Positions 502-39,107 of a stretch of 40,475 nt of DNA are shown one piece after another. The stretch lies in IMG/VR virus record IMGVR_UViG_2660237933_000004. One strand, given 5' to 3'. Under the pieces are notes generated by a model. That model was not told where the DNA came from. It did not search any database and was given only the letters and a program-made list of their open reading frames with translations. This DNA comes from a virus (Duplodnaviria > Heunggongvirae > Uroviricota > Caudoviricetes). A program made the translations under genes and the position numbers. Numbering within the stretch: the stretch's first letter is position 1; every line of letters begins with the position of its first letter.

Positions 502-1094
502 TGAAACCTGTTTTTGATGAAAATGGGCTGGCTACAGTGCCGGGCGATATGCGTTGTTTTTATTATGATGCTGAAACATCTGAGTATACGGGCTGGTCTG
601 ATGAATATATTAATACTGGCGTAAGTATGCCCGCCTGTTCAACTGGTATTGACCCGGGCGAAAACATTCTGGGAAGAGTGGCAGTATTTACAGGTAAGGG
701 ATGGAGCCATGAGGAAGACCATCGCAATGAGACTGTTTACTCAATCGAAAATGGTGCAGCTGTTACAGTGGATTATATCGGTGCCATCAAAGACGGTTAT
801 GTCACGCTTTCACCGTTAACGCCATACGATAAATGGGATGGTGAGAAATGGGTGACAGACACTGAGGCACAACACAGTGCCGCAGTAGACGCGGCAGAAG
901 CACAGCGCCAGTCACTGATTGATGCAGCAATGGCTTCCATTAGTCTGATTCAGCTGAAATTACAGGCCGGACGGAAACTGACTCAGGCAGAAACAACCCG
1001 ACTTAACGCCGTGCTGGATTACATTGACGCGGTGACGGCAACAGATACCAGCACCGCGCCGGATGTCATCTGGCCTGAACTGCCGGAGGCGTAG
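501..1094 (+). CDS. Tail fibre assembly protein (Tfa', alternative orientation)
   Basis: C-terminal motif DTSTAPDVIWPELPE typical of Tfa chaperones; convergent with the second tfa gene as in Mu G / P1 C segments. Confidence 0.7.
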   Translation: MKPVFDENGLATVPGDMRCFYYDAETSEYTGWSDEYINTGVSMPACSTGIDPGENILGRVAVFTGKGWSHEEDHRNETVYSIENGAAVTVDYIGAIKDGYVTLSPLTPYDKWDGEKWVTDTEAQHSAAVDAAEAQRQSLIDAAMASISLIQLKLQAGRKLTQAETTRLNAVLDYIDAVTATDTSTAPDVIWPELPEA

Positions 1095-1494
1095 GCCATT
1101 CAATATCGGGTGCTGTTGACGTATCAACACGCATCAGCAGCACACGGTATTTCTTCCATTGGGTGAGAGTTGTAGCTTCTTCATCAGTTGCGATATCAGC
1201 ATCAACAGCATCCTGACGCCAGGATATTTCACTGTCAGCTTTTTCCCGTAATTGGGATTTTTTAACTTCAGCAATAGCTATTAATTCCTTTTTGGTCGGC
1301 TGAGGAATATCTATCATTGCTGGTTTTCCATTCAGTGTTCCAATCTGTTTTCCTGGTGGAATATCCATAAATAACTTTTTATGTTCTTCCTCACTGACTA
1401 TTACACCATCATCAGGCCACAGACCTGATGCCTCAAATTTTTCTTTCTCCGATATGGGGAAAAAGCCATTTGCTTTAGCGCTCCATACGTACAT
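1066..1494 (-). CDS. Tail fibre assembly protein (Tfa)
   Basis: 142 aa; C-terminal KKYRVLLMRVDTSTAPDIEWPTPP motif; directly downstream of the tail fibre gene. Confidence 0.75.
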   Translation of the reverse strand: MYVWSAKANGFFPISEKEKFEASGLWPDDGVIVSEEEHKKLFMDIPPGKQIGTLNGKPAMIDIPQPTKKELIAIAEVKKSQLREKADSEISWRQDAVDADIATDEEATTLTQWKKYRVLLMRVDTSTAPDIEWPTPPAVQAR

Positions 1495-1495
1495 A

Positions 1496-2080
1496 TCAAT
1501 ACCCCACCGCTATAATGTCCACATTAAATCCCCCGGGACCTGCCTGCCAGATGCTGGCCCCTGTTAATGATTTTGTTTGATGAACAACCGCCACATTTGC
1601 TGGCGATTGTGTTTCAGTTGTTACAGTACCGATATCATTCCAGTTAATTGAGATGGAATAGTTCGTTGTTGTAAACGACCGGGGGAAAGTTATGTGTCTT
1701 ACATTGGTGCCAACAGGAAATCCAAGATAAACACGCTGAATTATCATTCCTCCAGGTAACATAACCCAGTTAGCACCTTCTCCCAAACCAAGGTTTTCGA
1801 GAGCCGTTTTCACCGTGCCATCCGATTTGATATCACCAAACGGATTCTTGCGGCTTAACAGCAGCGCACGAAGCGCGGTAAGCAACTGGTCGTGCCGCTC
1901 CTTCTCCAGGCTGGCACCGGAGGCCTCCACCACGCTGCAGAGTTCTTCCTGCAACATGTCAAAGTAGTCATCATCCAGATCGGTGGCAGGCGTGCCTGTC
2001 TGGGGGTTACCACGGGTAAAACCGTTCTTACCCGCGCCGAACTTATCCTTCTGCGCGGTTTTCGTGTCTATACGATGCAT
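1496..2080 (-). CDS. Tail fibre protein (constant N-terminus plus currently expressed variable C-terminus)
   Basis: 194 aa; its N-terminal sequence looked like a conserved tail-fibre N-terminus from memory; right crossover site lies inside the gene at the GLGEGA codons. Confidence 0.7.
1778..1803. repeat. DNA-invertase crossover site, right (hix/gix-like)
   Basis: TTCTCCCAAACCAAGGTTTTCGAGAG; reverse complement CTCTCGAAAACCTTGGTTTGGGAGAA closely resembles hix (CAAAAACC TT GGTTTT) and matches the left site. Confidence 0.55.
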
Positions 2081-7142: not shown

Positions 7143-7673
7143 TTAGCGAGTCAGAAACAACGAATCTTTATACTTTTGCTGTTGTTCATTTAAATACTTA
7201 GCTGTTTCATCGCTGGCAAATGGAAATATTACCGTATTTTTAGGCATGGTAATTTCTTTTTTGTCCAGCGTCAGAGTAAACATAGGAACATACTGAGCAG
7301 AGTAACGCACCGCAGAAACGAGCTCTAGTTTAGACTCTTCAATAACACTTAAATTATCCAGGCTAACTTTCTCTTCATCTTTTTTCTTTGACGCATTTAA
7401 AGTTTTTATTACTTTATTTAATTTCTCCTGAAAATCCTCCTTAAAGTTTTCAGGATTGCCGTCGACAACAAGAATCTGTTCACCCTGATTATCTGGAAAA
7501 ATAATCTTTGCACTTATCAATTTATTTTCTTTATAAACATCACCAAGTTTTATGGCTCCTCCAGATAACTGAATAATATGTTCATCTTTAAAGGAGATGT
7601 TGCCAGAGATTATGAGAGATGAAAAAATAGCCGCTGCTCCAAGAATTACACTTGCTGTGATATAGCCTTTCAT
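7143..7673 (-). CDS. Hypothetical membrane-anchored moron protein
   Basis: 176 aa; N-terminal hydrophobic helix (VILGAAAIFSSLIIS) then Lys/Glu-rich soluble domain; markedly AT-rich versus flanking tail genes; own promoter-like sequence and terminator. Confidence 0.6.
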   Translation of the reverse strand: MKGYITASVILGAAAIFSSLIISGNISFKDEHIIQLSGGAIKLGDVYKENKLISAKIIFPDNQGEQILVVDGNPENFKEDFQEKLNKVIKTLNASKKKDEEKVSLDNLSVIEESKLELVSAVRYSAQYVPMFTLTLDKKEITMPKNTVIFPFASDETAKYLNEQQQKYKDSLFLTR

Positions 7674-22657: not shown

Positions 22658-23461
22658 ATGACAGAAAAAGATAACATTGGTAAGTTAATTTGGCATATTG
22701 CTTGCGATGAATCTGGCATTGATGGACAACGTTTCTACGGCTTTGGCAGTCTGTGGATGAAGTACCAACGCCGTGGGGATTTCTGTCAACTAATCAGAGA
22801 ACTACGCGGAAAACATGGTTTTTTTGAAGAAATAAAATGGCAAAAAGCCCATTCAAAAAGATACTCTGAATTTTATCTTGAGCTGATCGACTTATTCTTT
22901 AGAGTTCCTTGGCTAGCTTTTCATTGTATCGTGGTTGAAAAATCAATAGTAAATAAGGCATTTCATAATGGAGATTATGACCTGGCAAGGAGAAAGCACT
23001 TCACAAATCTCATTACCACAAAAATTAGCTCTGTAATTTCTGCACACCCTGAAAGAGACAGTTACTTCAGGATTGAAGTTGATCCTATCGCATCTCGTTA
23101 TAAAAAGGCTGATGAAGAACTAAATGTTATTGCCAATAACATATTGAATAGAAAATTTGGTCGTAAAGGGATAATCAGCAGTGTAGTGACAAAAGACTCT
23201 AAAGCATCTGAAAACATTCAGCTAGCCGATTTTTTCTTAGGTGCGGTTATGTGCGCATATCAAGGAAAAGCTTCATCTGAAGCCAAAATAAGAGTATCAA
23301 ACTATGTTGCTTCATATTTAGGCTGGGATCACTTGCAATATGATACATGGCACACTGAGAGAAAATTTAATATCTGGTATTTTTATGATAAAACTCGAGG
23401 GCCACGAGATATAGAAACTCAAAATGTTAGCTTGAAGTATCCACTTCCCAAAAAGAAATAG
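22658..23461 (+). CDS. DUF3800-like protein (function unknown), opposite-strand moron between Q and holin
   Basis: 267 aa; N-terminal DESG and C-terminal QLAD motifs as I recall for DUF3800; AT-rich; AT-rich upstream region. Confidence 0.6.
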   Translation: MTEKDNIGKLIWHIACDESGIDGQRFYGFGSLWMKYQRRGDFCQLIRELRGKHGFFEEIKWQKAHSKRYSEFYLELIDLFFRVPWLAFHCIVVEKSIVNKAFHNGDYDLARRKHFTNLITTKISSVISAHPERDSYFRIEVDPIASRYKKADEELNVIANNILNRKFGRKGIISSVVTKDSKASENIQLADFFLGAVMCAYQGKASSEAKIRVSNYVASYLGWDHLQYDTWHTERKFNIWYFYDKTRGPRDIETQNVSLKYPLPKKK

Positions 23462-26274: not shown

Positions 26275-27801
26275 TCAAAAATAAACCTCACCATCAACCA
26301 TATATTTGAGAGTACTTATCGCCTGCTGGGCGGATATTGTTTTCATTAAAGGATAGTGTTTAAAAACAATGCCATTCATAAAATAGATATCACAGGTTTT
26401 ATTATCTGTATTGATTATGATTTTTTCGAATGTTTTATAGGCAAGTGTACGACATAGCTCTCGCCCATTTTTACTGGTTAAGTCAATAGCATGAAAATCA
26501 CCAAGTGAACTCACCGCTTTACTCTTCAAAGTTTTTAATGATACAGAAGCCCTTCGTAATTCCTTATCTAATACTCTGATTTTTTCTGCTATAGCGGTAA
26601 CTTCAGGCGCAACAGATAATGCAGCAATTAAATTATTAATTTTCATCTGGAGCTCAATAATTTTCAACTCTAAAGTTTCATTAGCATCTTTCTTGTTTTC
26701 AACTGGTTGGATTTTACTACAATTAAAAAGCAACTCATTAATGATATTATAATCAACCAAATCTCTCTTTATTGATGGCCTGTCACATCGATGCAGTCTT
26801 CTCATCGGACAAACATAATAGCCATGCAAACTTCCAGATACCGCATGAACAATCATGGTATTACCACAAGCCTCGCACTTCATAACTGTTCGAAGTAGAT
26901 TTATCAACATAGGATTTTTGCTACTATTGCTAATACCAAAAGGTGCCAACCGAATTTCCTGCACAGCGTAAAACAAATCATCTGATATGACTCTGGGATA
27001 ATAGCCAGCGATTTCACTTATTCCTTTACCTCTTGCACGATATGAAGGTACGCATATACCTATCAGAGCTTTATTCGCTAATAATTTTTCAATTACAGAA
27101 GGCCCCCATGCACTTTCTTTGCCTGAGAAATTTTTTACAGCATGATCATTTAAATACTTGGCTATTGCATTCAATGATCGCCTTTCCATCCTGAGTTTAA
27201 AAATTAGCTCAATCGTTTTCACCCTGTCGGGGTCTGGAATAAAAGCTGTTCTTTTGTCATCCAATGAGAGCCATCTCGGACAAGACGCCGTCATAATCGT
27301 GCCTGACTCCAGTGCATCCTGCCGTTTTTTCTTCCATGATAATTTAACCCGACTTGACTTTATCTCGCTTTCTTCATTTGCCCTTTGTGCTATAAGTATG
27401 GCTTTTATTAATGAATATGGATCATTCAAAGAGTCAATATTATAGACTGTATTATCGCAAAGAGTTATAACATCAATACCGTGATTCAAAATCAATTTCA
27501 GACGCTCAATCGCTTCACCGACTTTTTCTCTTGAAAGTCTGTCCAAACTTTCAACTAACAATGTAGTTCCTGGCAATATATAACCATGCTCTATAGCATC
27601 TAAAAATTCCGAAAAAGCTCCTGATTGTGCATGCTTTCCTTTGAATGCACTTAATCCTAAATCTTCATATGTTATGGTATCAAGATAATAATCACTATTT
27701 ACCTTTAACCATTCAGCAATAAGTCTTCTCTGTCGGTTTAATGAGTCGCCAGACATCTGACCTGGTGATGAAAATCGCATATATGCTATGGCTTTTTTCA
27801 T
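26275..27801 (-). CDS. ybcK: Large serine recombinase (YbcK-like)
   Basis: 508 aa; N-terminal resolvase motif YMRFSSPGQ...SLNRQ, Cys-rich zinc-ribbon region (CEACG...CPMRRLHRC); AT-rich. Confidence 0.8.
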   Translation of the reverse strand: MKKAIAYMRFSSPGQMSGDSLNRQRRLIAEWLKVNSDYYLDTITYEDLGLSAFKGKHAQSGAFSEFLDAIEHGYILPGTTLLVESLDRLSREKVGEAIERLKLILNHGIDVITLCDNTVYNIDSLNDPYSLIKAILIAQRANEESEIKSSRVKLSWKKKRQDALESGTIMTASCPRWLSLDDKRTAFIPDPDRVKTIELIFKLRMERRSLNAIAKYLNDHAVKNFSGKESAWGPSVIEKLLANKALIGICVPSYRARGKGISEIAGYYPRVISDDLFYAVQEIRLAPFGISNSSKNPMLINLLRTVMKCEACGNTMIVHAVSGSLHGYYVCPMRRLHRCDRPSIKRDLVDYNIINELLFNCSKIQPVENKKDANETLELKIIELQMKINNLIAALSVAPEVTAIAEKIRVLDKELRRASVSLKTLKSKAVSSLGDFHAIDLTSKNGRELCRTLAYKTFEKIIINTDNKTCDIYFMNGIVFKHYPLMKTISAQQAISTLKYMVDGEVYF

Positions 27802-28057
27802 GGTGACACCTGCTAACGTATGCTTTTATAAACCTTAGTGGTGAGATATAATTTTTGTTTAATTTTTATTTAAAAAGACAATTAAGGTCACATTATCTTG
27901 AATATACAACAATAATCGTATTGCAATTTTCTTACGCCATAATCTTGAAAGCACAAAAGAATACATAAAAAAATAAAGACATTAACAAAAAGCATAAAAC
28001 GAGGCTCATATAAATATAAGAGCCTCCATATTTTAGTCGTTTAGAAACAAATTATTT

Positions 28058-28390
28058 TTAATGTGGTGTGCTTCGTGACAATAAATTAATAACCAACACT
28101 CCGGCACAAATCAACATCATGCCTATAATGGCTGGCATGTCCAGCCGTTGGCCGAAAAATCCCCATGACAGTAAGCTAATCAGGACAATACCGACTCCTG
28201 ACCAGATAGCATAAGCAATCCCTGTAGGAATATAAGCCAGCGTCTGCGCTAATAACCAGAATGATGCACAATAACAAATAATTGTACCAACAGATGGCCA
28301 TAACCGTGTAAAACCTTCTGAAAACTTCATTAAGGTTGTACCAATGACCTCTGCAAGTATTGCACCACCAAGATAAATATAAGGGTTCAT
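28058..28390 (-). CDS. emrE: Small multidrug resistance efflux protein EmrE
   Basis: 110 aa from MNPYIYLGGAILAEVIGTTLMKFSEGF; four TM helices; matches E. coli EmrE from memory. Confidence 0.85.
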   Translation of the reverse strand: MNPYIYLGGAILAEVIGTTLMKFSEGFTRLWPSVGTIICYCASFWLLAQTLAYIPTGIAYAIWSGVGIVLISLLSWGFFGQRLDMPAIIGMMLICAGVLVINLLSRSTPH

Positions 28391-28457
28391 AGCATATTCT
28401 TTCCTGTTCAAACTGGAGAGAATTGTACTACAGTTTGAACTCAACTCACCTGTTTCA

Positions 28458-28760
28458 TCATTGTGTACCCATTGATGTTCTTTTATATACCCTCAATACC
28501 CGTTTCATCGCGGCACTCTGGCGACACTCCTTAAAAATCAGATTCGTGCTCACCTTTCCTTCCCGTTCTTCTCTGGTAGCGAACCGGTAATACACCGTTC
28601 GCCAGACCTTACCATCAACGACCAGGATTCCTGCCCGCGCCATTTTAGCCGCAGCCTGATTTATGCTGGTTACGGTTGCGCCTGTTACCGCGGCAACGTC
28701 CTGCGCACAGAAGTTCTTATGAGTCCCCAGGTAATGAATAATTGCCTCTTTGCCTGTCAT
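28458..28760 (-). CDS. ren: Ren
   Basis: 100 aa, near-identical to lambda Ren through the first ~90 residues. Confidence 0.75.
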   Translation of the reverse strand: MTGKEAIIHYLGTHKNFCAQDVAAVTGATVTSINQAAAKMARAGILVVDGKVWRTVYYRFATREEREGKVSTNLIFKECRQSAAMKRVLRVYKRTSMGTQ

Positions 28761-29458
28761 ACACTTGCTCCTTTCAGTCCGAACTTAGCTTTAATTTCTG
28801 CGATCTTCGCCAGAGCCTGTGCACGATTTAGAGGTCTACCGCCCATAACAGGAAGTTGTTTTACTGGTTCAGGTATCGTCTCACCACGGTTAATTCGCGC
28901 TGTCATACAGGTCAGTTCATCGGCAGCCTTGCGCCGTAATTCCGCGTCAGTCAGCGCATTGGCCCGCATGTTCTGGTACAAGTTGGTAACCAACCAGTAA
29001 TGCGCGTTCGATTTCCACGGATAAGACTCTGCATCCGGATACAGGCCACGCTTCCGGCAATACTCGTAAACCATATCAACCAGCTCGCTGGCGTTTGGCA
29101 GTCCGGCAATAACGGATGCTTCTTCACGGCACCATGCAACAAACTGCCCGGGTGATGGCAGAAATGGTCGATTCTGCCGACGGGCTACGCGCATTCCTGC
29201 GTTAACCTGTTCCATTGTGGTGATCCCGTTTTCCCGGAAAGCCAGCACCCACTGGCGGCGGATTTCGTTCAGTTCGTTCTGGTCCCGGTTAGCCAGGCTC
29301 GCCGGGAAAGTTGCCAGTAACTGGCTGAACACACCATTGATGATCTGCGCTACCTGTTGTACCTGCGGCTTTTCGTCGTACTGTTCCGGCATGTTGTTGG
29401 CGATCCGACGCATCTGCTCACGGTCAAAGTTAACCATCTGTGCGGCGATGTTTTTCAT
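28757..29458 (-). CDS. P: Replication protein P (DnaB helicase loader)
   Basis: 233 aa, near-identical to lambda P. Confidence 0.9.
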   Translation of the reverse strand: MKNIAAQMVNFDREQMRRIANNMPEQYDEKPQVQQVAQIINGVFSQLLATFPASLANRDQNELNEIRRQWVLAFRENGITTMEQVNAGMRVARRQNRPFLPSPGQFVAWCREEASVIAGLPNASELVDMVYEYCRKRGLYPDAESYPWKSNAHYWLVTNLYQNMRANALTDAELRRKAADELTCMTARINRGETIPEPVKQLPVMGGRPLNRAQALAKIAEIKAKFGLKGASV

Positions 29459-30384
29459 AAATCCACCCCGTAAATCCAGTCAGTGTTTGTCAGGTCGAGT
29501 TTTGGTTTGCTGGCTGTCACGCCTGCCTGTTGCTTGTTACGGTTGATTTCGAGCTGGGTCCACTTGTCGCGGAGTTTGGCCGGACTCAGCACGTTACCGG
29601 ACCAGAAGTTGTCCTGGCATGCCCAGCGGAACAGCACGCACATGTCGCGGTGGTTACGTCCGTCACGTTCACGCATCAGGCGGATATCGTTAGCCCACCC
29701 TGCAAAATTCGGTTTTCTGGCTGATGGCGCGATGGTCTTCACCATGTCAAACATCCACTCTGCGGCGGTCAGGTCTTCTGCTGTCCCCCACTTGCTGCCG
29801 CTCTGAATTGCAGCATCTGGTTTCACCACAGGAAGATCGTTTTCTGGTTGGTCAGAGGATTCGCCAGAATTCTCGGACGAAAAAGGTTTTATATTGTCTT
29901 TTGTTAGTTTGTCTTTTGTGTTTACCTGATTCGGGTAAACGCCTTTACCTGATTTGGGTAAACTTTTCTTACCTGATTCAGGTAAATTTACCTCTTTCAG
30001 GTAAACTTTATTTTTCTTACCTGATTCGGGTAATGTTGACCATTCACTGACCACATTATTAATACCGATATTCCGCCCGCTCTGAATCAAAATCCCACGC
30101 TTTACCAGAACACTTTTTGCAGCAGAACACTTGTGCGGCAATATCCCGGTCAACTCGGAAAGTTGCTCGTTGCTCACCCAATCCAGTTTTTTATTAAAGC
30201 CATATGTTTTGCGCATGACAGCCAGGAAGACCAGAAGCTGGTGCTGTGTTAATCCGGCCAGCATCACAGCTTCCAGCAACTCATTTGCAATGCGCGTATA
30301 ACCATCATCGAGATCTGCCACGCGCGGCTCCTTTTGTGCCGCATCCGGCACTGGAAAATTGAATATCTCAGCAGTGTTTGCCAT
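29455..30384 (-). CDS. O: Replication initiator O
   Basis: Lambda O-like N-terminus (VADLDDGY), iterons inside the gene, and O C-terminus; start chosen at MANTAEIF with GGGAGGA RBS, upstream of which the ORF track extends. Confidence 0.85.
   Translation of the reverse strand: MANTAEIFNFPVPDAAQKEPRVADLDDGYTRIANELLEAVMLAGLTQHQLLVFLAVMRKTYGFNKKLDWVSNEQLSELTGILPHKCSAAKSVLVKRGILIQSGRNIGINNVVSEWSTLPESGKKNKVYLKEVNLPESGKKSLPKSGKGVYPNQVNTKDKLTKDNIKPFSSENSGESSDQPENDLPVVKPDAAIQSGSKWGTAEDLTAAEWMFDMVKTIAPSARKPNFAGWANDIRLMRERDGRNHRDMCVLFRWACQDNFWSGNVLSPAKLRDKWTQLEINRNKQQAGVTASKPKLDLTNTDWIYGVDL
29923..30033. repeat. Replication origin iterons (O-binding sites), five 18-bp direct repeats
   Basis: TACCTGATTCGGGTAAAC-like units at 29923, 29946, 29969, 29987, 30016 within the O coding region. 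Confidence 0.7.
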
Positions 30385-30470
30385 AATTCCTCCCGCAATG
30401 AGTGTGTTACGATTTGCACCTGAAAGTCGGTTCTGTTCCCGCAGACCGACTTTCGCCATTTTTGAACCTG

Positions 30471-31010
30471 TCATATTGCCCCCAGCATGGTGGTGACCAT
30501 CGCCATCAATGGACCAGCCAGATCCGGGTCCACTCGAAACATCGACACAATGCCTTCACTCATCTCCTTCAGTTTCTGGTGGCGTGGTGCGTTGAGAATG
30601 ACAGCCTGTTTTGCCTCACTGAGTTCCTTTTCCATTTCAGCCAACCTAGCCATAAAGCTATCCTGCTCAACCAGGTAACCGCGATATTCCAGCGGTAGTA
30701 CCGCCAGAATTGCCGGGGTCAGTTCACGCACGTTATTTCGGTATTTTTCAGAATCGAATTTGTTATCGAGGAAGCGGAACAGCTTCTGGCGTGCACGGCT
30801 GACATCATCAGGGAAATCGATGGTGCCGCCGCCCTGCTCCCGATACTCATTCACAATGAGTGCGGCAACAACATCCTGATTATCTGCAGCCGACCAGGCG
30901 CGGACGGCATCACGGATTTTTTCGTGGCCTGGAGCTTGTTTTGTTTGAGAACGATTTATCACCGCAGTCGGGCTAAATCCGCTAGTCTGTTGGTATGTAA
31001 GTGGTTGCAT
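30471..31010 (-). CDS. YdaT-like protein in cII position
   Basis: 179 aa; EYREQGGG and TPAILAVLP segments resemble Rac YdaT from memory; follows a Cro/YdaS-type regulator. Confidence 0.45.
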   Translation of the reverse strand: MQPLTYQQTSGFSPTAVINRSQTKQAPGHEKIRDAVRAWSAADNQDVVAALIVNEYREQGGGTIDFPDDVSRARQKLFRFLDNKFDSEKYRNNVRELTPAILAVLPLEYRGYLVEQDSFMARLAEMEKELSEAKQAVILNAPRHQKLKEMSEGIVSMFRVDPDLAGPLMAMVTTMLGAI

Positions 31011-31079: not shown

Positions 31080-31310
31080 TTAAGCTGCGTTCTTTTCGGT
31101 GTGTGGAAACAACTTCGGAAGATCCGGGCGAATCTGGTATGCCTTCACTACTCCACCAGTAGCCGTAACAATGCTGCCGACATGTTCAGGGGATACCTTT
31201 GCTTTGTTGTGAAGCCACTTATAGACGGCCTGCTGTGAAACTTCGCAGGCAGCGCCCAGTTTCTTTTGTGAACCAACGATATTGATCGCTGTTTTGATAG
31301 CTGGGTTCAT
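31080..31310 (-). CDS. cro: Cro-like repressor (YdaS-type HTH)
   Basis: 76 aa; helix-turn-helix (QKKLGAACEVSQQAVYKW); divergent from cI across a 104-bp operator region. Confidence 0.65.
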   Translation of the reverse strand: MNPAIKTAINIVGSQKKLGAACEVSQQAVYKWLHNKAKVSPEHVGSIVTATGGVVKAYQIRPDLPKLFPHTEKNAA

Positions 31311-31350
31311 AACAACCTCCGTGGTTAATTTGAATCAAGATTAAAACTGT

Positions 31351-31371
31351 GGTTGTTTTTAGTCAACAACC
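31351..31371. promoter_or_regulatory. Candidate OR operator palindrome
   Basis: GGTTGTT-TTTAGTC-AACAACC perfect 7-bp inverted repeat between cro and cI; the same GTTGTT/AACAAC hexamers recur at the pL region. Confidence 0.35.
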
Positions 31372-31414
31372 ATTTTCGTTTGATGGAATAAAACCTTGGT
31401 TGTACATTTGGACT

Positions 31415-32104
31415 ATGAAAACAACACTCTCAGAAAGACTTAAAGAAGCCAGATTAGCGCGAGGCCTTACACAAAAGGCGCTTGGGGATTTGGTCGGGGT
31501 TAGCCAAGCTGCTATTCAGAAAATCGAAACAGGGAAAGCTAACCAAACAACTAAAATCGTGGAGATCGCGAACGCTTTGGGTGTGCGCGCAGAATGGTTA
31601 TCTTCTGGCGTTGGAAATATGTCAGACAGTACAGTGCAACCAATACCATCAACTGTCAGCCATTCCAAATACTTTAAGATTGACGTTCTTGATATAGAAG
31701 TGAGTGCCGGGCCGGGAGTCATCAACCGTGAGTTTGTAGAAGTTCTACGCTCGGTTGAGTACTCGTTTGACGATGCTCGTCACATGTTCGATGGTAGGAA
31801 GGCAGAAAATATCCGCATCATTAACGTACGCGGTGACAGCATGTCAGGAACGATCGAACCAGGTGATCTGCTGTTCGTTGATATCACGGTTAAATCTTTC
31901 GACGGTGATGGTATCTATGCGTTTCTGTATGACGACACCGCCCATGTAAAGCGCCTGCAAATGATGAAGGATAAGCTACTGGTTATCTCTGATAACAAGA
32001 GCTACTCGCCGTGGGACCCAATTGAGAAAGACGAGATGAACCGGGTATTCATCTTCGGTAAGGTTATTGGGAGCATGCCGCAGACATACAGGAAGCATGG
32101 GTAA
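31415..32104 (+). CDS. cI: CI-type prophage repressor (HTH plus S24 LexA-like autopeptidase domain)
   Basis: 229 aa from MKTTLSERLKEARLARGLTQKALGD; C-terminal GDSMSGTIEPGDLLFVD Ser nucleophile motif and a downstream Lys. Confidence 0.85.
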   Translation: MKTTLSERLKEARLARGLTQKALGDLVGVSQAAIQKIETGKANQTTKIVEIANALGVRAEWLSSGVGNMSDSTVQPIPSTVSHSKYFKIDVLDIEVSAGPGVINREFVEVLRSVEYSFDDARHMFDGRKAENIRIINVRGDSMSGTIEPGDLLFVDITVKSFDGDGIYAFLYDDTAHVKRLQMMKDKLLVISDNKSYSPWDPIEKDEMNRVFIFGKVIGSMPQTYRKHG

Positions 32105-32183
32105 CTACCGAATCGAATACTATAACTACGTAAAAAGACTATACATATCAACATTTTTTCTTTGATACATAGATGGAATAGCA

Positions 32184-33029
32184 ATGAAGCTTAACTTTTA
32201 TGCCGTATACATTCAAAATACTAGCTCTCTGAAAAAACAACCTATAGATTTATTGTCATTTCTGACAGAGCAGGTAATAAACGCTAAGAATCATGCTCAG
32301 CAGATTGAAGACTACTATGTTTTTGCACATCATATAATTAATGATAGTTTTATCCTGACAAAAACATTTGATTCAGAACTAGTTAAAAAAATCAATAGAA
32401 AAACACTTTCGGTTGATGAAATAAGAAATGCGCTTAGTTCAGATGAGTCATTAGGATTCCCATCATTTTTATTAATAAGAAAAAATATTATCGGATATGC
32501 AAATACATTATTCGGCCCAAAAACTCGTGATCTTGCAGCTTACCTAAAAGGAAAGGGAGCAATACCTGATGGATACTCACTATTCATAGAACCTTTGATG
32601 AGAGATATAACAAAGGATGATGCTTTAAGCATGCAGTTTATAGGAAGAACAACGGTAAGGGTTGAAAATGGGTCAAAACTTCTCAGCCCCCTACTTAGAG
32701 TGCTTGGTGCACAAGCAGTTGACGAAGAGCTCTTAGAAGGACTGGAAATAACCGTGAAGCCTAAACGTTTACGAAATATAAAATCTGTTGCCAAAGGGAT
32801 TATTAGCAATGTGGATGAACAACATGAGAGCATTCACCTGAAGGGTAAAGAACAAGCTGCAGATATTCTTACAGAATATTATCTTTCTGACAAAGGCCAC
32901 ATTGGAGCAAATATCTATAAATCATCGAATGAAGACATAGCATCCGAAATGTCAACTTGCTATCTCAGGATGAAATTGATTATAATGGAAAGTTATAATA
33001 GAACATTTGGAGATGAGTTACCACTATAA
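32184..33029 (+). CDS. rexA: RexA-like abortive-infection protein
   Basis: 281 aa directly downstream of cI; conserved segments ESLGFPSF, IEPLMR..TKDD, FIGRTTVRVE, ILTEYYLSDKGH match lambda RexA from memory; AT-rich. Confidence 0.7.
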   Translation: MKLNFYAVYIQNTSSLKKQPIDLLSFLTEQVINAKNHAQQIEDYYVFAHHIINDSFILTKTFDSELVKKINRKTLSVDEIRNALSSDESLGFPSFLLIRKNIIGYANTLFGPKTRDLAAYLKGKGAIPDGYSLFIEPLMRDITKDDALSMQFIGRTTVRVENGSKLLSPLLRVLGAQAVDEELLEGLEITVKPKRLRNIKSVAKGIISNVDEQHESIHLKGKEQAADILTEYYLSDKGHIGANIYKSSNEDIASEMSTCYLRMKLIIMESYNRTFGDELPL

Positions 33030-33031
33030 TA

Positions 33032-33487
33032 TTGGGGGGCTATATGAAGTCACGGCACAGGATAGCGCCAGCAATAATACTTTTTCTTTTGCCATTCCCA
33101 ATTATTATAAGTGCGTATTATCTAATCCGCCACATGTTTCCGGGTATGGCTTTTAGCGAGCACAGAGATGCGCTGGGTGGCGCTATTGCCGCTTATTCTG
33201 GTACTACAATTGCGATACTTATAGCCGCTTTAACATTTCTGATGGGGCTGGGAGGCAGGAATATTCGCAAATTGAAAACATATGGCTATATGACATCAAT
33301 CATAATCATGTATGGATTAACTTTTTGCGAGCTAGGAGTACTTTTCTTTAATGGCTTGTTTTTACTTGCAACAAGTAAAAATCCTATACTAATGCTACCA
33401 TCAATCGCTATTGGTTTATCAGGTACGTCACTAATCCATATTGGCATGCTCCTGATGCAATTACTTAATCTGTCAAAACATAAGTAA
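33032..33487 (+). CDS. rexB: RexB-like membrane protein
   Basis: 151 aa, four hydrophobic helices; FSEHRDALG...TIAILIAALTFL...YGYMTS closely matches lambda RexB from memory. Confidence 0.7.
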   Translation: MGGYMKSRHRIAPAIILFLLPFPIIISAYYLIRHMFPGMAFSEHRDALGGAIAAYSGTTIAILIAALTFLMGLGGRNIRKLKTYGYMTSIIIMYGLTFCELGVLFFNGLFLLATSKNPILMLPSIAIGLSGTSLIHIGMLLMQLLNLSKHK

Positions 33488-33512
33488 CCCGGCCTTGCCG
33501 GGTTTTCTTTTG
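33487..33512 (+). terminator. Intrinsic terminator after rexB
   Basis: ACCCGGC-CTTG-CCGGGT hairpin followed by TTTTCTTTT directly after the rexB stop codon. Confidence 0.6.
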
Positions 33513-33638
33513 CCTCCCCTCATCACACAAACCGTTCGAAAAACCACCATAACCCCCGCTTCAGTTATCGCTATGCGATGCAAGTCACAAAATAAATCCA
33601 TCCTAAATACAACCAGTTATATCTAAAACAACCAATAA

Positions 33639-33681
33639 AACAACTTTTGTTGTTGACGATAAAACAACTATAGTTTTAAAT
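33639..33681 (+). promoter_or_regulatory. Candidate pL promoter with overlapping operator
   Basis: 16-bp perfect palindrome AACAACTTTTGTTGTT (33639-33654) overlapping TTGACG (33653-33658), 17-bp spacer, TTAAAT (33676-33681). Confidence 0.4.
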
Positions 33682-33879
33682 GAATTCATCGCAACAACAC
33701 AACGATACGGCAATCACCTGATTCACCGTTGCGATGACCGCTTAGATCCGCAGCTTGAATTTCAGCAGGCTCCGGGGAGTGCGAGGGGTGAAGCGGACGC
33801 GTGAACGTCGGTGTGACCAGCTGAAATCAACCCAACTCAACACCTCATACCTCAGTCGCTTCAACGAGGCGGCTTAGTT

Positions 33880-34170
33880 ATGACAACCGGCGGCCATCCA
33901 CCGCCTGAATACGCGCAGAAGTCTCTATATGTTCAGCAGCCCAGCTTACGGGCAGGAGTTTTTATGGTTCATCAACATTACGGAACGCAGACCGTTAATC
34001 GAGGTGCGGTCATGCCAGGAATGCTGGTCAAACACAAAGATGGTACCTGGACTGCATCAGCTAATTTACGCGGACGGCTTTATCTGCATCGCGGCATCGA
34101 GCGCACTTATACCCGTGATTTGCTCGTAGAAGTTTTTCTCGACGGACGCGGTAACGGCCTGAATCACTAA
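33880..34170 (+). CDS. Hypothetical protein in the kil/cIII position (first ORF of the pL operon)
   Basis: 96 aa ORF upstream of gam; no arginine-rich N-type motif; start codon uncertain. Confidence 0.3.
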   Translation: MTTGGHPPPEYAQKSLYVQQPSLRAGVFMVHQHYGTQTVNRGAVMPGMLVKHKDGTWTASANLRGRLYLHRGIERTYTRDLLVEVFLDGRGNGLNH

Positions 34171-34246
34171 CCCCCCTTTCCTGTTTTCCTAATCAGCCTG
34201 GCATTTCGCGGGCGATATTTTCACAGCCATTTTCAGGAGTTCAGCC

Positions 34247-34543
34247 ATGAACGCTTATTACATTCAGGATCGTCTTGAGGCTCAGAGCTGGGCGCGTCAC
34301 TACCAGCAGATCGCCCGTGAAGAGAAAGAGGCAGAACTGGCAGACGACATGGAAAAAGGCCTGCCCCAGCACCTGTTTGAATCGCTATGCATCGATCATT
34401 TGCAACGCCACGGGGCCAGCAAAAAAGCCATTACCCGTGCGTTTGATGACGATGTTGAGTTTCAGGAGCGCATGGCAGAACACATCCGGTACATGGTTGA
34501 AACCATTGCTCACCACCAGGTTGATATTGATTCAGAGGTATAA
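34247..34543 (+). CDS. gam: Gam (RecBCD inhibitor), short form
   Basis: 98 aa, near-identical to the C-terminal 98 residues of lambda Gam; an in-frame stop at 34190 excludes the long form. Confidence 0.9.
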
Positions 34544-34548
34544 AACGG

Positions 34549-35334
34549 ATGAGTACAGCACTCGCAACGCTGGCAGGGAAGCTGGCTGAACGTGTCGGCA
34601 TGGATTCTGTCGACCCACAGGAACTGATCACCACTCTTCGCCAGACAGCATTTAAAGGCGATGCCAGCGATGCGCAGTTCATCGCATTGTTGATCGTCGC
34701 CAACCAGTACGGCCTTAATCCGTGGACGAAAGAAATTTACGCCTTCCCTGATAAGCAGAACGGCATTGTTCCGGTGGTGGGCGTTGATGGCTGGTCCCGC
34801 ATCATCAATGAAAACCAGCAGTTTGATGGCATGGACTTTGAGCAGGACAATGAATCCTGTACATGCCGGATTTACCGCAAGGACCGTAATCATCCGATCT
34901 GCGTTACCGAATGGATGGATGAATGCCGCCGCGAACCATTCAAAACCCGCGAAGGCAGAGAAATCACGGGGCCGTGGCAGTCGCATCCCAAACGGATGTT
35001 ACGGCATAAAGCCATGATTCAGTGTGCCCGTCTGGCCTTCGGATTTGCTGGTATCTATGACAAGGATGAAGCCGAGCGCATTGTCGAAAATACTGCATAC
35101 ACTGCAGAACGTCAGCCAGAACGCGACATCACTCCGGTTAACGATGAAACCATGCAGGAGATTAACACTCTGCTGATCGCCCTGGATAAAACATGGGATG
35201 AAGACTTATTGCCGCTCTGTTCCCAGATATTTCGCCGCGACATTCGCGCATCGTCAGAACTGACACAGGCCGAAGCAGTGAAAGCTCTTGGATTCCTGAA
35301 ACAGAAAGCCACTGAGCAGAAGGTGGCAGCATGA
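34549..35334 (+). CDS. bet: Bet (Red-beta single-strand annealing protein)
   Basis: 261 aa, near-identical to lambda Bet. Confidence 0.9.
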
Positions 35335-36011
35335 TACCGGACATTATCCTGCAGCGTACCGGGATCGACGTGAGAGCTGTCGAACAGGGGGATGATGCAT
35401 GGCACAAATTACGGCTCGGCGTCATCACCGCTTCAGAAGTTCACAACGTGATAGCAAAGCCCCGCTCAGGAAAGAAGTGGCCTGACATGAAAATGTCCTA
35501 CTTCCACACCCTGCTGGCTGAGGTTTGCACCGGTGTGGCTCCGGAAGTTAATGCTAAGGCGCTGGCCTGGGGAAAACAGTACGAGAACGACGCCAGAACC
35601 CTGTTTGAATTCACTTCCGGCGTGAATATTACTGAATCCCCGATCATCTATCGCGACGAAAGTATGCGCACCGCCTGCTCTCCCGATGGTTTATGCAGTG
35701 ACGGCAACGGCCTTGAACTGAAATGCCCGTTTACCTCCCGGGATTTCATGAAATTCCGGCTCGGTGGTTTCGAGGCAATAAAATCGGCTTACATGGCCCA
35801 GGTGCAGTACAGCATGTGGGTGACGCGAAAAGATGCCTGGTACTTTGCCAACTATGACCCGCGCATGAAGCGTGAAGGCCTGCATTATGTCGTGATTGAG
35901 CGGAATGAAAAGTACATGGCGAGTTTTGACGAGATGGTGCCGGAGTTCATCGAAAAAATGGACGAGGCACTGGCTGAAATTGGTTTTGTATTTGGGGAGC
36001 AATGGCGATGA
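35331..36011 (+). CDS. exo: Exo (Red-alpha 5'-3' exonuclease)
   Basis: 226 aa, near-identical to lambda exonuclease. Confidence 0.9.
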
Positions 36012-36166
36012 AGCATCCTCGCGATAATATCCGGGTAGGCGCGATCACTTACATCTACTCCGTTACAAAGCGAGGCTGGGTATTTCCCGGCCTTTCTGTT
36101 ATCAGAAATCCACTGAAAGCACAGCGGCTGGCTGAGGAGATAAATAATAAACGGGGGGCTGTATGA
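36008..36166 (+). CDS. Hypothetical small protein (52 aa), translationally coupled
   Basis: ATG overlaps exo stop (ATGA); stop overlaps the methyltransferase start; manual translation [19 protein letters not shown]... Confidence 0.3.
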
Positions 36167-36720
36167 CTGATTTCACCGGAAGCAATACTCCTGCCGAACA
36201 TCGCGACAGCTGGCGCACACCACCAGAGATTTTTGCTGCGCTTAATGCAGAGTTCGTTTTTCAACTTGATGCTGCAGCCAGCGAAAAAAACCGACTATGT
36301 CGGCTTTTTATCTCACAGGAGCAGAACACATTAACCACTTCATGGCCTGAAGCAATGGGATATGCCTCTGGTTATGTCTGGTTGAATCCACCATACAGCA
36401 ATATTTCCCCTTTTGTGAAAAAGGCAGCCACTGAAAACAAATTCAGTAGTGTGGGATGTGTAATGTTATTGCCTGCTGACACATCTGTCGGATGGTTTCA
36501 TGAAGCGATACAAACCGCCAGTGAGGTCAGATTCATCACGGCAGGACGACTGGCATTTATTAACCCACTCACCGGGAAACCCGTCAGTGGAAATAATAAA
36601 GGCTCGATGCTCATTATCTGGCACCCATACCCCCGTACACACTGCCACTTTACGACCGTTGATCGTGGAGAGTTGATGGCGTTCGGCTCAAGGATTCTTG
36701 CCCGTCGGGAGGCTGCATGA
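36163..36720 (+). CDS. Phage N6-adenine DNA methyltransferase (Dam-like, orphan)
   Basis: 185 aa; NPPY catalytic motif (WLNPPYSNISPF) and WRTPPEIFAALNAEF N-terminal region typical of the phage Dam family. Confidence 0.8.
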   Translation: MTDFTGSNTPAEHRDSWRTPPEIFAALNAEFVFQLDAAASEKNRLCRLFISQEQNTLTTSWPEAMGYASGYVWLNPPYSNISPFVKKAATENKFSSVGCVMLLPADTSVGWFHEAIQTASEVRFITAGRLAFINPLTGKPVSGNNKGSMLIIWHPYPRTHCHFTTVDRGELMAFGSRILARREAA

Positions 36721-37655: not shown

Positions 37656-37977
37656 GGCCTGTCAGTTTCTCAAGATATCCAGACCTACCGCTACCAACTG
37701 GATACGAACAGGCCGCCTACAGGCAACACGCAAAGACCCCACTAAACTAAAATCTCCTTACCTCACAACACGACAAGCCTGCATTGCGGCGCTTCAGTCT
37801 CCGCTGCATACTGTCCAGGTGAGCGCGGGTGATGGCATAACAGAGGAAAGAAAATGTCACTCTTCCGCAGAGGTGAAATATGGTACGCCAGTTTCACATT
37901 GCCGAACGGTAAAAGATTTAAACAGTCTCTTGGAACAAAGGACAAAAGGCAGGCGACAGAGCTCCATGACAAGCTAA
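37627..37977 (+). CDS. xis: Excisionase (P22-type)
   Basis: 116 aa from [31 protein letters not shown] (AlpA/Xis-type HTH); immediately upstream of and overlapping int. Confidence 0.7.
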
Positions 37978-39017
37978 AGGCTGAAGCATGGCGGGTCAGC
38001 AAACTTGGTGAAATACCTGATATGACGTTCGAGGAGGCGTGTATCAGGTGGCTCGAAGAGAAAGCACATAAAAAATCACTGGACGATGACAAAAGCCGGA
38101 TCGGATTCTGGCTTCAACATTTCGCAGGGATGCAACTAAGAGACATCACTGAATCAAAAATTTATTCAGCAATGCAGAAAATGACGAACCGGCGTCATGA
38201 GGAAAACTGGAAACTCAGGGCAGAAGCATGCAGAAAAAAAGGGAAACCTGTTCCAGAATACACGCCAAAACCAGCGTCCGTTGCAACGAAGGCTACGCAT
38301 CTTTCATTTATAAAGGCCCTGCTAAGAGCCGCAGAGCGTGAATGGAAAATGCTGGATAAGGCACCAATTATTAAAGTGCCTCAACCAAAGAATAAACGGA
38401 TCCGCTGGCTGGAGCCCCATGAAGCACAAAGGCTGATTGATGAATGTCCGGAGCCATTAAAGTCTGTTGTTGAATTTGCACTGGCAACAGGCTTAAGACG
38501 CTCGAACATCATCAACCTTGAATGGCAACAAATAGATATGCAGCGCCGGGTGGCATGGATAAACCCGGAAGAGAGTAAATCAAACCGCGCAATTGGCGTT
38601 GCGCTGAATGATACTGCATGTCGCGTATTGAAAAAACAAATCGGGAATCATCACCGTTGGGTATTTGTGTACAAGGAAAGCTGTACCAAACCAGACGGAA
38701 CGAAAGCGCCAACAGTAAGGAAGATGCGGTATGACGCAAACACAGCCTGGAAAGCGGCGCTGAGACGGGCTGGTATTGATGATTTCAGATTTCACGACTT
38801 GAGACACACCTGGGCAAGTTGGCTGGTTCAAGCCGGAGTCCCGTTGTCAGTGTTACAGGAAATGGGAGGCTGGGAGTCTATCGAAATGGTTCGTCGATAT
38901 GCTCACCTTGCACCTAATCACCTTACCGAACACGCACGGCAAATAGACTCGATCCTGAACCCATCGGTCCCAAATTTGTCCCAGTCAAAAAATAAGGAAG
39001 GTACTAATGATGTGTAA
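37854..39017 (+). CDS. int: Tyrosine integrase (P22/SfV-type, thrW-specific)
   Basis: 387 aa; N-terminus [31 protein letters not shown] and catalytic region [10 protein letters not shown]...VRRYAHL; ends 14 bp from the tRNA-Thr 3' end. Confidence 0.9.
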
Positions 39018-39031
39018 CTTATTGATTTAAA

Positions 39032-39107
39032 TGGTGCCGATAATAGGAGTCGAACCTACGACCTTCGCATTACGAATGCGCTGCTCTACCAACTGAGCTA
39101 TATCGGC
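39032..39107 (-). tRNA. thrW: tRNA-Thr (anticodon CGU), thrW-type
   Basis: Minus-strand 76 nt GCCGATATAGCTCAGTTGGTAGAGCAGCGCATTCGTAATGCGAAGGTCGTAGGTTCGACTCCTATTATCGGCACCA; cloverleaf with CGT anticodon; 3' CCA. Confidence 0.9.

What the first reader, a model, noticed from the sequence alone, without database searches (positions are those of the whole stretch)
32184..33512. Divergent RexA/RexB-like exclusion pair co-transcribed with cI
Directly downstream of the cI repressor are a 281-aa and a 151-aa four-helix membrane protein that share several sequence blocks with lambda RexA and RexB as I recall them, followed by a strong intrinsic terminator. Rex is the classic abortive-infection system of the lambda lysogen. 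This copy is clearly diverged and AT-rich, and sits in a phage whose structural genes are unrelated to lambda.
Basis: partly seen in the sequence, partly recalled or inferred. Interest (0 to 1): 0.55.

Follow-up and report, generated by a model that had tools for sequence, protein, structure and literature searches.

The report
Divergent RexA/RexB pair after cI
This is a genuine but ordinary copy of the classic lambda RexA/RexB phage-exclusion gene pair, a roughly 48%-identical allele that is common in E. coli prophages and already recognised by standard databases, sitting in the usual slot just after the prophage repressor gene.

Summary
rexA (32184-33029, 281 aa) and rexB (33044-33487, 147 aa from the ATG; 151 aa only from an upstream TTG) lie 79 nt after a cI-type repressor and end at a strong intrinsic terminator (33486-33504 plus T-run). 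Both match the RexA and RexB models over full length (Pfam 3.8e-59 / 8.3e-41; PADLOC 3.5e-115 / 2.2e-55). They are 48% and 49% identical to lambda RexA and RexB. The RexA model's best structural match is the lambda RexA crystal structure 8TWQ. The operon layout copies lambda: operators, cI, rexA with a PLIT-like internal promoter, rexB, a TIMM hairpin nearly identical to lambda's, then a second operator cluster. The host phage is an SfI/SfII/SfV-type myovirus prophage at thrW. That is not unusual, because phage SfI already carries lambda-type rexAB. The exact RexA protein is named "protein rexA" at NCBI and is widespread in E. coli assemblies. The cI-to-N interval is a published mosaic and defence hotspot. 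Added here: the exact cassette boundaries, co-divergence of RexA with RexB, reassortment of Rex alleles independently of cI alleles, and a clade-specific D215-to-S change at a known conformational-lock residue. Function is inferred by homology and is untested. Verdict: already known, low interest.

The parts
31311..31414 (.). OR-like operator/promoter region between the divergent cro-like gene (31080-31310, minus strand) and cI. It contains the perfect inverted repeat TGGTTGTT-N7-AACAACCA (31350-31372) and further AACAAC/GTTGTT half-sites. A weak PRM-like TTGATG-17-TACATT (31380-31408) ends 6 nt before the cI ATG.
   Evidence: four half-sites in 120 bp against 0.125 expected. The PRM-like hexamers are my own reading of the sequence (8/12, below the scan threshold) and are inference only.
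31415..32104 (+). cI-type repressor (HTH_3 plus S24 peptidase), 229 aa from the ATG at 31415. The 251-aa reading from the GTG at 31349 would begin inside the operator palindrome. This is not the lambda immunity type.
   Evidence: Pfam. It is 23% identical to lambda CI. RefSeq uses the 229-aa start. The same cI at 96-97% nt identity occurs in phages PhiR47_2, PhiR26_1 and others.
32105..33480 (+). The exchangeable cargo cassette. Homology with phages that share this cI stops at the cI stop codon and resumes inside the terminator.
   Evidence: blastn break points are 32103/32104 and 33481/33497. In the same slot PhiR47_2 carries GevT/GevA, PhiR26_1 a putative lipoprotein, and Lambda_4C10 a two-gene pair of GevT/GevA-like sizes.
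32184..33029 (+). rexA, 281 aa: the predicted cytoplasmic sensor and DNA-binding dimer of the Rex system.
   Evidence: Pfam PF15969 3.8e-59, PADLOC RexA 3.5e-115, PHROG 12654 5.2e-121. PDB 8twq 2.2e-74. 48% identity to lambda RexA. Foldseek top hit 8twq, E 1.8e-23, TM 0.60.
32957..32986 (+). PLIT-like internal promoter TTGCTA-18-TATAAT in the 3' end of rexA. It would give a rexB-only transcript.
   Evidence: 10/12 match. Lambda has TTGCTA-18-TATACT in the same codon register. The literature places PLIT in the distal end of rexA. A synonymous-codon shuffle shows the match is largely explained by protein conservation.
33044..33487 (+). rexB, 147 aa: the predicted four-helix inner-membrane effector.
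   Evidence: Pfam PF15968 8.3e-41, PADLOC RexB 2.2e-55, PHROG 14878 4.9e-63. 49% identity to lambda RexB. Four hydrophobic segments and an invariant TM3 Glu in the F-x-E-L-G motif.
33486..33512 (+). TIMM-like intrinsic terminator. The hairpin AACCCGGC-ctt-GCCGGGTT overlaps the rexB stop codon and is followed by TTCTTTTG.
   Evidence: The stems and T-tract are nearly identical to lambda TIMM (AACCCGGCctcagcGCCGGGTT TTCTTT).
33627..33700 (.). OL-like operator cluster downstream of the terminator, with five AACAAC/GTTGTT half-sites including AACAAC-N4-GTTGTT. It is presumably the PL region that reads on into kil/gam/bet.
   Evidence: this is the densest half-site cluster in the window, and the second densest is the OR-like region. 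Gam, Bet and Exo follow at 34247-36011.

Best explanation
This is a functional, divergent allele of the lambda RexA/RexB abortive-infection (phage exclusion) system. It is carried as lysogen-expressed cargo in the repressor operon of an SfV-type prophage.

Shown here:
- Two intact adjacent genes belong to the RexA and RexB families.
- They sit between cI and a TIMM-type terminator.
- The unit is bracketed by matching operator clusters.
- A promoter-like element lies at the position of lambda PLIT.

Inferred by homology to lambda:
- In the lysogen the maintenance promoter transcribes cI-rexA-rexB as one message that ends at the terminator, and rexB may get extra expression from the internal promoter.
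- RexA is a cytoplasmic dimer with a RdgC-like fold that binds DNA non-specifically.
- When a superinfecting phage produces its trigger, which is unknown even for lambda and is thought to be a protein-DNA or replication/recombination intermediate, RexA activates the four-helix membrane protein RexB.
- RexB then compromises the membrane, by ion leakage with loss of membrane potential and ATP in lambda or by permeabilisation in the P. putida system. Growth of the infected cell stops and the infection aborts.
- An excess of RexB over RexA would damp the system during the prophage's own lytic growth.

Secondary roles known for lambda Rex may also apply: RexA biasing the CI/Cro switch toward lysis, and RexB stabilising the O replication protein.
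For: Family membership:
- Full-length matches to the RexA and RexB models in Pfam, PADLOC and PHROG.
- 48% and 49% identity to lambda RexA and RexB.
- phmmer hit to crystal structure 8twq at 2.2e-74.
- The AF2 model's top fold hit is 8twq (E 1.8e-23), with the weaker CHL4/CENP-N and RdgC hits expected from the structure paper.

Functional residues, from the family alignment and the mutant data:
- The DNA-binding residues R219/K221 are kept as K220/K222.
- R261 is kept as R262.
- The swivel loop has the same length.
- 51 RexA positions are invariant across 22 sequences.

RexB keeps four hydrophobic segments, the TM2 motif IAILIAALTF and the TM3 Glu.

The operon anatomy is homologous to lambda, including near-identical TIMM stems and PLIT-like hexamers in the same register.

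Evidence for a maintained, interacting unit:
- RexA and RexB co-diverge across alleles: 68/67, 61/57, 51/50 and 43/42% identity.
- They are adjacent in every locus examined.
- The exact RexA protein is listed in 1431 blocks of the assembly collection and lies at several attachment sites.

Distant RexAB-type pairs have been shown experimentally to defend (P. putida; actinobacteriophages, cited).
Against: No phenotype, transcript or protein data exist for this allele, so every mechanistic step is inferred.

Lambda D215 forms the interdomain lock with R261, and D215W abolishes T4rII exclusion. In this clade that residue is Ser (S216), with an acidic residue shifted one position (E215). The conformational control may therefore differ.

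The glycine hinge G140 is Asp here, although lambda G140A and G140P were neutral.

The central domain of the AF2 monomer model is low-confidence, with pLDDT below 50 over residues 212-236.

Conservation of the PLIT-like element is not distinguishable from protein-level constraint.

The lambda mechanism itself is unresolved. [quoted passage not shown]
Confidence: 0.85

Rival explanations
1. The pair's main selected role is regulation of the prophage's own life cycle rather than defence. RexA would bind the repressor or operator DNA and bias the bistable switch toward lytic growth. RexB would protect the lambda-type O replication initiator from ClpXP. Exclusion of other phages would then be a side effect.
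For: Both activities are documented for lambda (Thomason et al. preprint; Adams et al.). This prophage has lambda-type O and P replication genes (29455-30474 and 28757-29458; Phage_rep_O and Phage_lambda_P in the equivalent genes). The DNA-binding residues of RexA are conserved.
Against: Rex alleles reassort freely with unrelated repressors. The identical E. albertii RexA follows a 95% lambda-like CI in one genome and a repressor with no meaningful similarity to it in another. The window's cI is 23% identical to lambda CI. The closest named relative (Pantoea, 68%) sits inside a tail module, far from any repressor. Phages with the same cI replace the pair with the GevT/GevA toxin-antitoxin or with other cargo, so the slot behaves as an accessory or defence slot. 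The two roles are not mutually exclusive.
Confidence: 0.1
2. The genes are inert passengers. They are intact but no longer functional, or not expressed, and are simply carried along with the immunity region.
For: There are no expression data. RefSeq annotates both genes as hypothetical proteins in most genomes. The D215 position is substituted.
Against: Both reading frames are intact. All family-invariant positions are retained. The proteins co-diverge rather than decay. The identical protein is spread over more than a thousand assembly blocks and several attachment sites. The terminator and promoter-like elements are preserved. The Ser at the D215 position is shared by the whole clade at or above 65% identity, so it is not a private lesion.
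Confidence: 0.03

Closest known systems
Bacteriophage lambda RexA/RexB (Pfam PF15969 / PF15968; RexA structure PDB 8TWQ)
   Same: Same two families, same gene order and a near-identical intergenic gap (14 nt here, 15 nt in lambda). Same position between cI and the PL operators. Homologous TIMM hairpin, and a PLIT-like promoter in the same codon register. The basic DNA-binding residues, R261, the swivel-loop length, the four RexB hydrophobic segments and the TM3 Glu are all conserved.
   Different: Only 47-50% amino-acid identity, with no detectable DNA similarity in the coding regions. Lower GC (35-39% against 40-43%). D215 is replaced by S and G140 by D. The partner repressor is a different immunity type (23% identity to lambda CI). 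The host phage is an SfV-type myovirus at thrW rather than a lambda siphovirus.
rexA/rexB of Shigella phage SfI (NC_027339)
   Same: The same virion module as this window (about 97% nt identity over about 17 kb) and a cI-rexA-rexB arrangement.
   Different: SfI carries the whole lambda immunity block, with lambda-type cI and lambda-type Rex. Its RexA is 47.7% identical to this one. The window carries a different cI allele and a different Rex allele.
RexAB-type system of Pseudomonas putida prophage P1 (PP_5643/PP_5644; Sci Rep 2026, PMC12894663) and the actinobacteriophage Rex-like pairs (Sbash gp30/31, CarolAnn, Toast)
   Same: Each is a two-gene prophage system with a DNA-binding RexA-like sensor and a membrane RexB-like effector that stops growth of infected cells.
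   Different: Those systems are far more distant, related to lambda mainly at the structural level. P. putida RexB permeabilises the membrane without depolarising it. The window's pair is a close, sequence-level member of the enterobacterial RexAB family.
Other cargo in the lambdoid cI-to-N slot: BstA (Owen et al. 2021) and GevT/GevA in phage PhiR47_2
   Same: The same genomic slot, immediately downstream of the repressor and presumably sharing its promoter. This slot is a published mosaic and defence hotspot.
   Different: The proteins and mechanisms are unrelated. Only the slot and the expression logic are shared.

Membership tests
RexAB phage exclusion system (lambda type) | RexA-family protein: full-length match to PF15969 above the gathering score | tested here: met
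   200.6 bits against a cutoff of 25, residues 1-228 on profile positions 1-234 of 235. PADLOC RexA 382 bits over the full profile. 48% identity to lambda RexA.
RexAB phage exclusion system (lambda type) | RexB-family membrane protein: full-length match to PF15968, with four transmembrane helices | tested here: met
   140.2 bits against a cutoff of 27. PADLOC RexB 184.8 bits. 49% identity to lambda RexB. Four hydrophobic segments at about residues 4-30, 43-74, 83-110 and 115-138, with an invariant TM3 Glu. Topology comes from hydropathy only.
RexAB phage exclusion system (lambda type) | rexA immediately followed by rexB on the same strand, as one unit | tested here: met
   The gap is 14 nt (33029 to 33044). 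The pair is adjacent in all 11 related loci examined and the two proteins co-diverge.
RexAB phage exclusion system (lambda type) | RexA two-domain RdgC-like fold as in PDB 8TWQ | tested here: met
   phmmer to 8twq 2.2e-74 over residues 1-276. The AF2 model (mean pLDDT 68) has 8twq as its top Foldseek hit: E 1.8e-23, probability 1.0, TM 0.60. The globular domain is confident, but residues 141-240 are poorly modelled in the monomer prediction.
RexAB phage exclusion system (lambda type) | Residues shown by mutagenesis to matter in lambda RexA: R219/K221 for DNA binding, the D215-R261 interdomain contact, and the swivel loop 239-244 | tested here: inconclusive
   R219 and K221 are K220 and K222, R261 is R262, and the swivel loop has the same length, so these are conserved. 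D215 is S216, with E215 adjacent, a change shared by all relatives at or above 65% identity. The consequence is unknown.
RexAB phage exclusion system (lambda type) | Location in the repressor (PRM) operon: cI-rexA-rexB ending at TIMM, between OR and OL | tested here: met
   cI ends 79 nt before rexA with no + strand terminator-like site in between. The TIMM hairpin is homologous to lambda's. Operator half-site clusters lie on both sides. Actual co-transcription was not measured. This feature is typical but not universal: the Pantoea pair lies in a tail module.
RexAB phage exclusion system (lambda type) | Second promoter (PLIT) in the distal end of rexA that drives rexB alone | tested here: inconclusive
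   TTGCTA-18-TATAAT (10/12) lies in the same codon register as lambda TTGCTA-18-TATACT and as four other alleles. Synonymous-codon shuffles reach the observed score with P between 0.04 and 0.72, so protein conservation could explain it. Promoter activity was not tested.
RexAB phage exclusion system (lambda type) | Exclusion of T4 rII mutants or other superinfecting phages by the lysogen | not testable with these tools
   This needs plaque assays on a lysogen or on the cloned pair.
RexAB phage exclusion system (lambda type) | RexA-dependent activation of RexB, causing membrane depolarisation or permeabilisation and growth arrest, modulated by the RexA:RexB ratio | not testable with these tools
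   This needs overexpression and membrane-potential or dye-uptake assays like those done for lambda and P. putida.

The most novel reading that the evidence does not exclude
This allele, one of a graded natural series at 77% down to 41% identity that reassorts independently of repressor type and virion type, may sense a different trigger or exclude a different set of phages from lambda Rex. Its clade-specific loss of the D215-R261 lock (D to S) may reflect a differently tuned closed-to-open switch in RexA. If so, chimeras between natural alleles would give a direct genetic handle on the 70-year-old open question of what RexA actually senses.
Probability: 0.3. Interest if true: 0.45.

Novelty: already known. 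Interest (0 to 1): 0.15.

Why it matters
Mostly as a correct annotation. RefSeq labels both genes "hypothetical protein" in 8 of the 9 complete E. coli genomes that carry this allele, and no NCBIfam model covers either protein. Yet they are clear RexA and RexB homologues that Pfam, PADLOC and PHROG detect.

The locus is also a clean example of cassette exchange in the lambdoid repressor operon. The recombination boundaries fall exactly at the cI stop codon and inside the shared TIMM terminator.

The natural allelic series could be used experimentally to map RexA trigger specificity, which is still unknown. That is an opportunity, not a discovery.

Tried and rejected
- **DNA-level selection on the PLIT-like promoter.** The promoter-like pair is in the homologous register in all six alleles. 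However, synonymous-codon shuffles give P = 0.04, 0.21, 0.26, 0.37, 0.14 and 0.72. Combining these by hand with Fisher's method gives roughly P = 0.09. I make no claim beyond presence at the homologous site.
- **blastn of the region against lambda.** There is no coding-region DNA similarity at E 1e-5. Only the terminator aligns by eye and by MAFFT.
- **NCBIfam.** No model hits either protein.
- **Literature search for GevA/GevT**, the cargo in the same slot of PhiR47_2. It returned only irrelevant hits.
- **A known RNA family, or a put-like antitermination RNA, downstream of OL**, where no N-like gene is obvious. Rfam gave only a chance miRNA hit (E 0.085, 24 bits against an 80-bit gathering score). 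The fold of 33685-33880 is unremarkable (z = -1.05). I dropped the idea.
- **The full 21-bp operator palindrome as a search pattern.** It found only the one OR copy. Counting half-sites was more informative.
- **Minus-strand ORFs inside the region** (32540-32833, 32769-32900, 33286-33447). They have no support and lie antisense to strongly supported genes, so I treat them as spurious.
- **The large protein search.** It returned only 22 clusters and did not list lambda RexA itself, so it under-samples the family. I used it only for the close-relative series.

Full report
**1. What is in the sequence**

The ORF list shows two + strand reading frames at the stated coordinates: 32184..33029 (281 aa) and 33032..33487 (151 aa from a TTG).

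The second gene more probably starts at the ATG at 33044, giving 147 aa. That codon has a G-run four nt upstream. It is the start used in RefSeq and by gene callers in every related genome. It also aligns with the N-terminus of lambda RexB.

Immediately upstream is a cI-type repressor with HTH_3 and Peptidase_S24 domains. It most likely runs from 31415 to 32104, because the longer GTG start at 31349 falls inside an operator palindrome.

A hairpin, AACCCGGC-ctt-GCCGGGTT followed by TTCTTTTG (33486-33512), overlaps the rexB stop codon. It folds at -15.9 kcal/mol, better than all 200 shuffles.

The two genes are 34.6% and 39.2% GC in a 50% GC window.

**2. Identity**

| Test | RexA | RexB |
|---|---|---|
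| Pfam | PF15969, 3.8e-59, full length | PF15968, 8.3e-41 |
| PADLOC | 3.5e-115 | 2.2e-55 |
| PHROG ("RexA-like"/"RexB-like exclusion protein") | 5.2e-121 | 4.9e-63 |
| BLASTP against lambda | 48% over 277 aa, E 8e-88 | 49% over 144 aa, E 2e-50 |

The only solved structure matched by sequence is lambda RexA, 8TWQ (2.2e-74).

An AlphaFold2 model built from 21 family members has a mean pLDDT of 68. Its globular domain is confident. The central region (about residues 141-240) is poor; in lambda RexA the aligned residues 215-221 lie in the dimerisation domain. The model's best Foldseek hit is 8TWQ (E 1.8e-23, TM 0.60). The weak CHL4/CENP-N and RdgC hits behind it are the distant relatives reported in the structure paper.

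**3. Functional detail**

I mapped the mutational data of Adams et al. 2024 (PMC11077077) onto a 22-sequence alignment.

- The DNA-binding pair R219/K221 is conserved as K220/K222.
- R261 is conserved as R262.
- The swivel loop has the same length.
- 51 positions are invariant.
- D215, the residue that hydrogen-bonds R261 and whose D215W mutant loses exclusion, is Ser here and in every relative at or above 65% identity. An acidic residue lies one position earlier.
- The hinge glycine G140 is Asp in all non-lambda members, although G140A and G140P were neutral in lambda.

RexB keeps four hydrophobic segments, the invariant stretch IAILIAALTF in TM2, a YGY motif, and the TM3 glutamate that Thomason et al. 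flagged as a possible proton sink.

**4. Operon anatomy compared with lambda**

The lambda record gives the order OL, rexB, rexA, cI, OR, cro. The window has the mirror image.

- A cro-like gene lies at 31080-31310 on the minus strand.
- An operator region follows, containing TGGTTGTT-N7-AACAACCA.
- Then come cI, rexA, rexB and the terminator.
- A second cluster of the same AACAAC/GTTGTT half-sites lies at 33627-33700, followed by kil, gam, bet and exo.

The two half-site clusters are the densest in the window: 5 and 4 sites per 120 bp, against 0.125 expected.

No + strand terminator-like site, and no strong promoter-like site, lies between cI and rexA. Co-transcription is therefore the natural reading, but it is inferred, not shown.

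Inside the 3' end of rexA there is TTGCTA-18-TATAAT (32957-32986; 10/12). Lambda has TTGCTA-18-TATACT in the same codon register, with the -35 overlapping the invariant Cys codon. The literature places PLIT, the rexB-only promoter, there.

The same register carries a promoter-like pair in the E. albertii, Photorhabdus and Xenorhabdus alleles, and a weaker one in Pantoea. A synonymous-codon shuffle shows that the conserved protein sequence alone gives 7-10 matches of 12 at this site (P between 0.04 and 0.72 per allele). I therefore cannot claim selection on the DNA element.

The TIMM hairpin and T-tract are almost identical to lambda's, although the coding DNA has diverged beyond blastn detection.

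**5. The cassette and its slot**

Phages that share this cI at 96-97% nt identity lose homology exactly at the cI stop codon (32103/32104). They regain it at 33481-33497, inside the terminator.

In between, PhiR47_2 carries the GevT/GevA toxin-antitoxin and PhiR26_1 a putative lipoprotein. Lambda_4C10, whose cI is about 89% identical over its distal part, has a two-gene pair of GevT/GevA-like sizes.

The exchangeable unit is thus 32105-33480, with the terminator acting as a shared right-hand junction. That the cI-to-N interval is a mosaic and defence hotspot is already published (Owen et al. 2021, PMC8585504, citing Degnan et al. 2007).

**6. Host phage and distribution**

Window 1-22 kb is about 97% identical to the Mu-like-tail myoviruses SfI, SfII, SfIV and SfV. 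An integrase (37854-39017) abuts tRNA-Thr(CGT) at 39032-39107.

But phage SfI, with the same virion module, already carries lambda-type cI-rexA-rexB, so the combination is not new.

The exact RexA protein is in NCBI as "protein rexA [Escherichia coli]". It is listed in 1431 blocks of the assembly collection. It occurs in lambdoid prophages at icd, in one next to a pectinesterase gene (probably the attλ region, which I did not verify), and at a fimbrial locus. It is in 9 of 5426 complete E. coli genomes, against 99 for the lambda allele. RefSeq calls it "RexA family antiphage protein" once and "hypothetical protein" otherwise. No NCBIfam model exists.

**7. Family structure**

A graded series of relatives exists at 77, 75, 71, 68 (Pantoea), 61 (E. 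albertii), 51 (Photorhabdus) and 43% (Xenorhabdus) identity. RexB is adjacent to RexA in every locus examined.

RexA and RexB identities track each other: 68/67, 61/57, 51/50 and 43/42%. This is what would be expected of an interacting pair inherited as a unit.

The position after a repressor is usual but not obligatory. The Pantoea pair is inserted, inverted, in a prophage tail module.

Rex alleles also reassort independently of repressor alleles. The identical E. albertii RexA follows a CI that is 95% identical to lambda CI in one genome. In another genome it follows a repressor with no meaningful similarity to that CI (28% identity over a 67-residue HTH segment, E 0.004). This argues against allele-specific co-evolution of RexA with its neighbouring repressor.

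**8. Mechanism**

The best-supported explanation (confidence about 0.85) is that this is a working RexAB abortive-infection system, expressed from the repressor operon of the lysogen.

RexA would sense an unknown product of superinfection and activate RexB, which damages membrane integrity or potential and stops the infected cell. This follows the lambda model and its recent P. putida counterpart.

Every step beyond gene identity and layout is inferred. A switch-modulating or O-stabilising role, as documented for lambda, may coexist with defence. An inert remnant is unlikely, given the conservation and spread.

**9. Verdict**

The feature is a recognised family member, detectable with standard tools, common in E. 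coli and located in a known hotspot.

Novelty: already known. It is an uncharacterised natural allele of a known system. Interest is low (0.15).

The only mildly novel angle is that the natural allelic series, with its clade-specific D215S change and free reassortment, could be used to map the still-unknown trigger specificity of RexA.

Noticed in passing
window 26275-28444 (minus strand): A 508-aa large serine recombinase (Resolvase, Recombinase and Zn_ribbon_recom domains) lies next to a small multidrug resistance (SMR) family transporter. Both sit in a 35-36% GC island between the replication gene P and the nin region. The same pair occupies the same slot in two other prophages that carry this Rex allele (L013, L014).
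   Followed up: partly
window 22658-23461 (+): An AT-rich 267-aa DUF3800 protein matches the PADLOC candidate defence family PDC-M04A (1.4e-34). It may be a second defence gene of the prophage, located near the lysis genes.
   Followed up: partly
window 7143-7673 (minus strand): A 176-aa ORF lies in a 39% GC dip inside the otherwise 55-58% GC tail module, between the tape-measure gene and the next tail gene. It has no Pfam or PADLOC hit and looks like a moron of unknown function.
   Followed up: partly
window 4-2080: Two tail-fibre assembly (Caudo_TAP) genes face each other (501-1094 on the + strand, 1066-1494 on the minus strand), next to short ORFs with no family hit. The layout resembles an invertible host-range segment of the Mu G or P1 C type. 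No invertase was seen within the window.
   Followed up: no
window 33700-34250: No N-like antiterminator gene is evident between the OL-like operators and kil/gam. Related genomes annotate only a KilR-type gene there. Rfam and folding gave no support for a structured antitermination RNA.
   Followed up: partly
window 30471-31010 (minus strand) and 36163-36720 (+): The cII position is occupied by a YdaT-type protein (PF06254, 1.4e-29), which is known as a functional equivalent of CII in some lambdoid prophages. A Dam-type orphan adenine methyltransferase lies in the early-left operon.
   Followed up: no
L006 4001-5306 (Pantoea brenneri contig): The closest named relative of this Rex pair (68%/67% identity) is inserted in the opposite orientation inside a prophage tail gene cluster, not after a repressor. 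The RexAB cassette can therefore occupy other moron slots.
   Followed up: partly
L008 3155-5299 compared with L007 3166-5299 (E. albertii): An identical RexA allele follows a 95% lambda-like CI in one genome and an unrelated repressor in another. The lambda immunity type is therefore not tied to the lambda Rex allele.
   Followed up: yes
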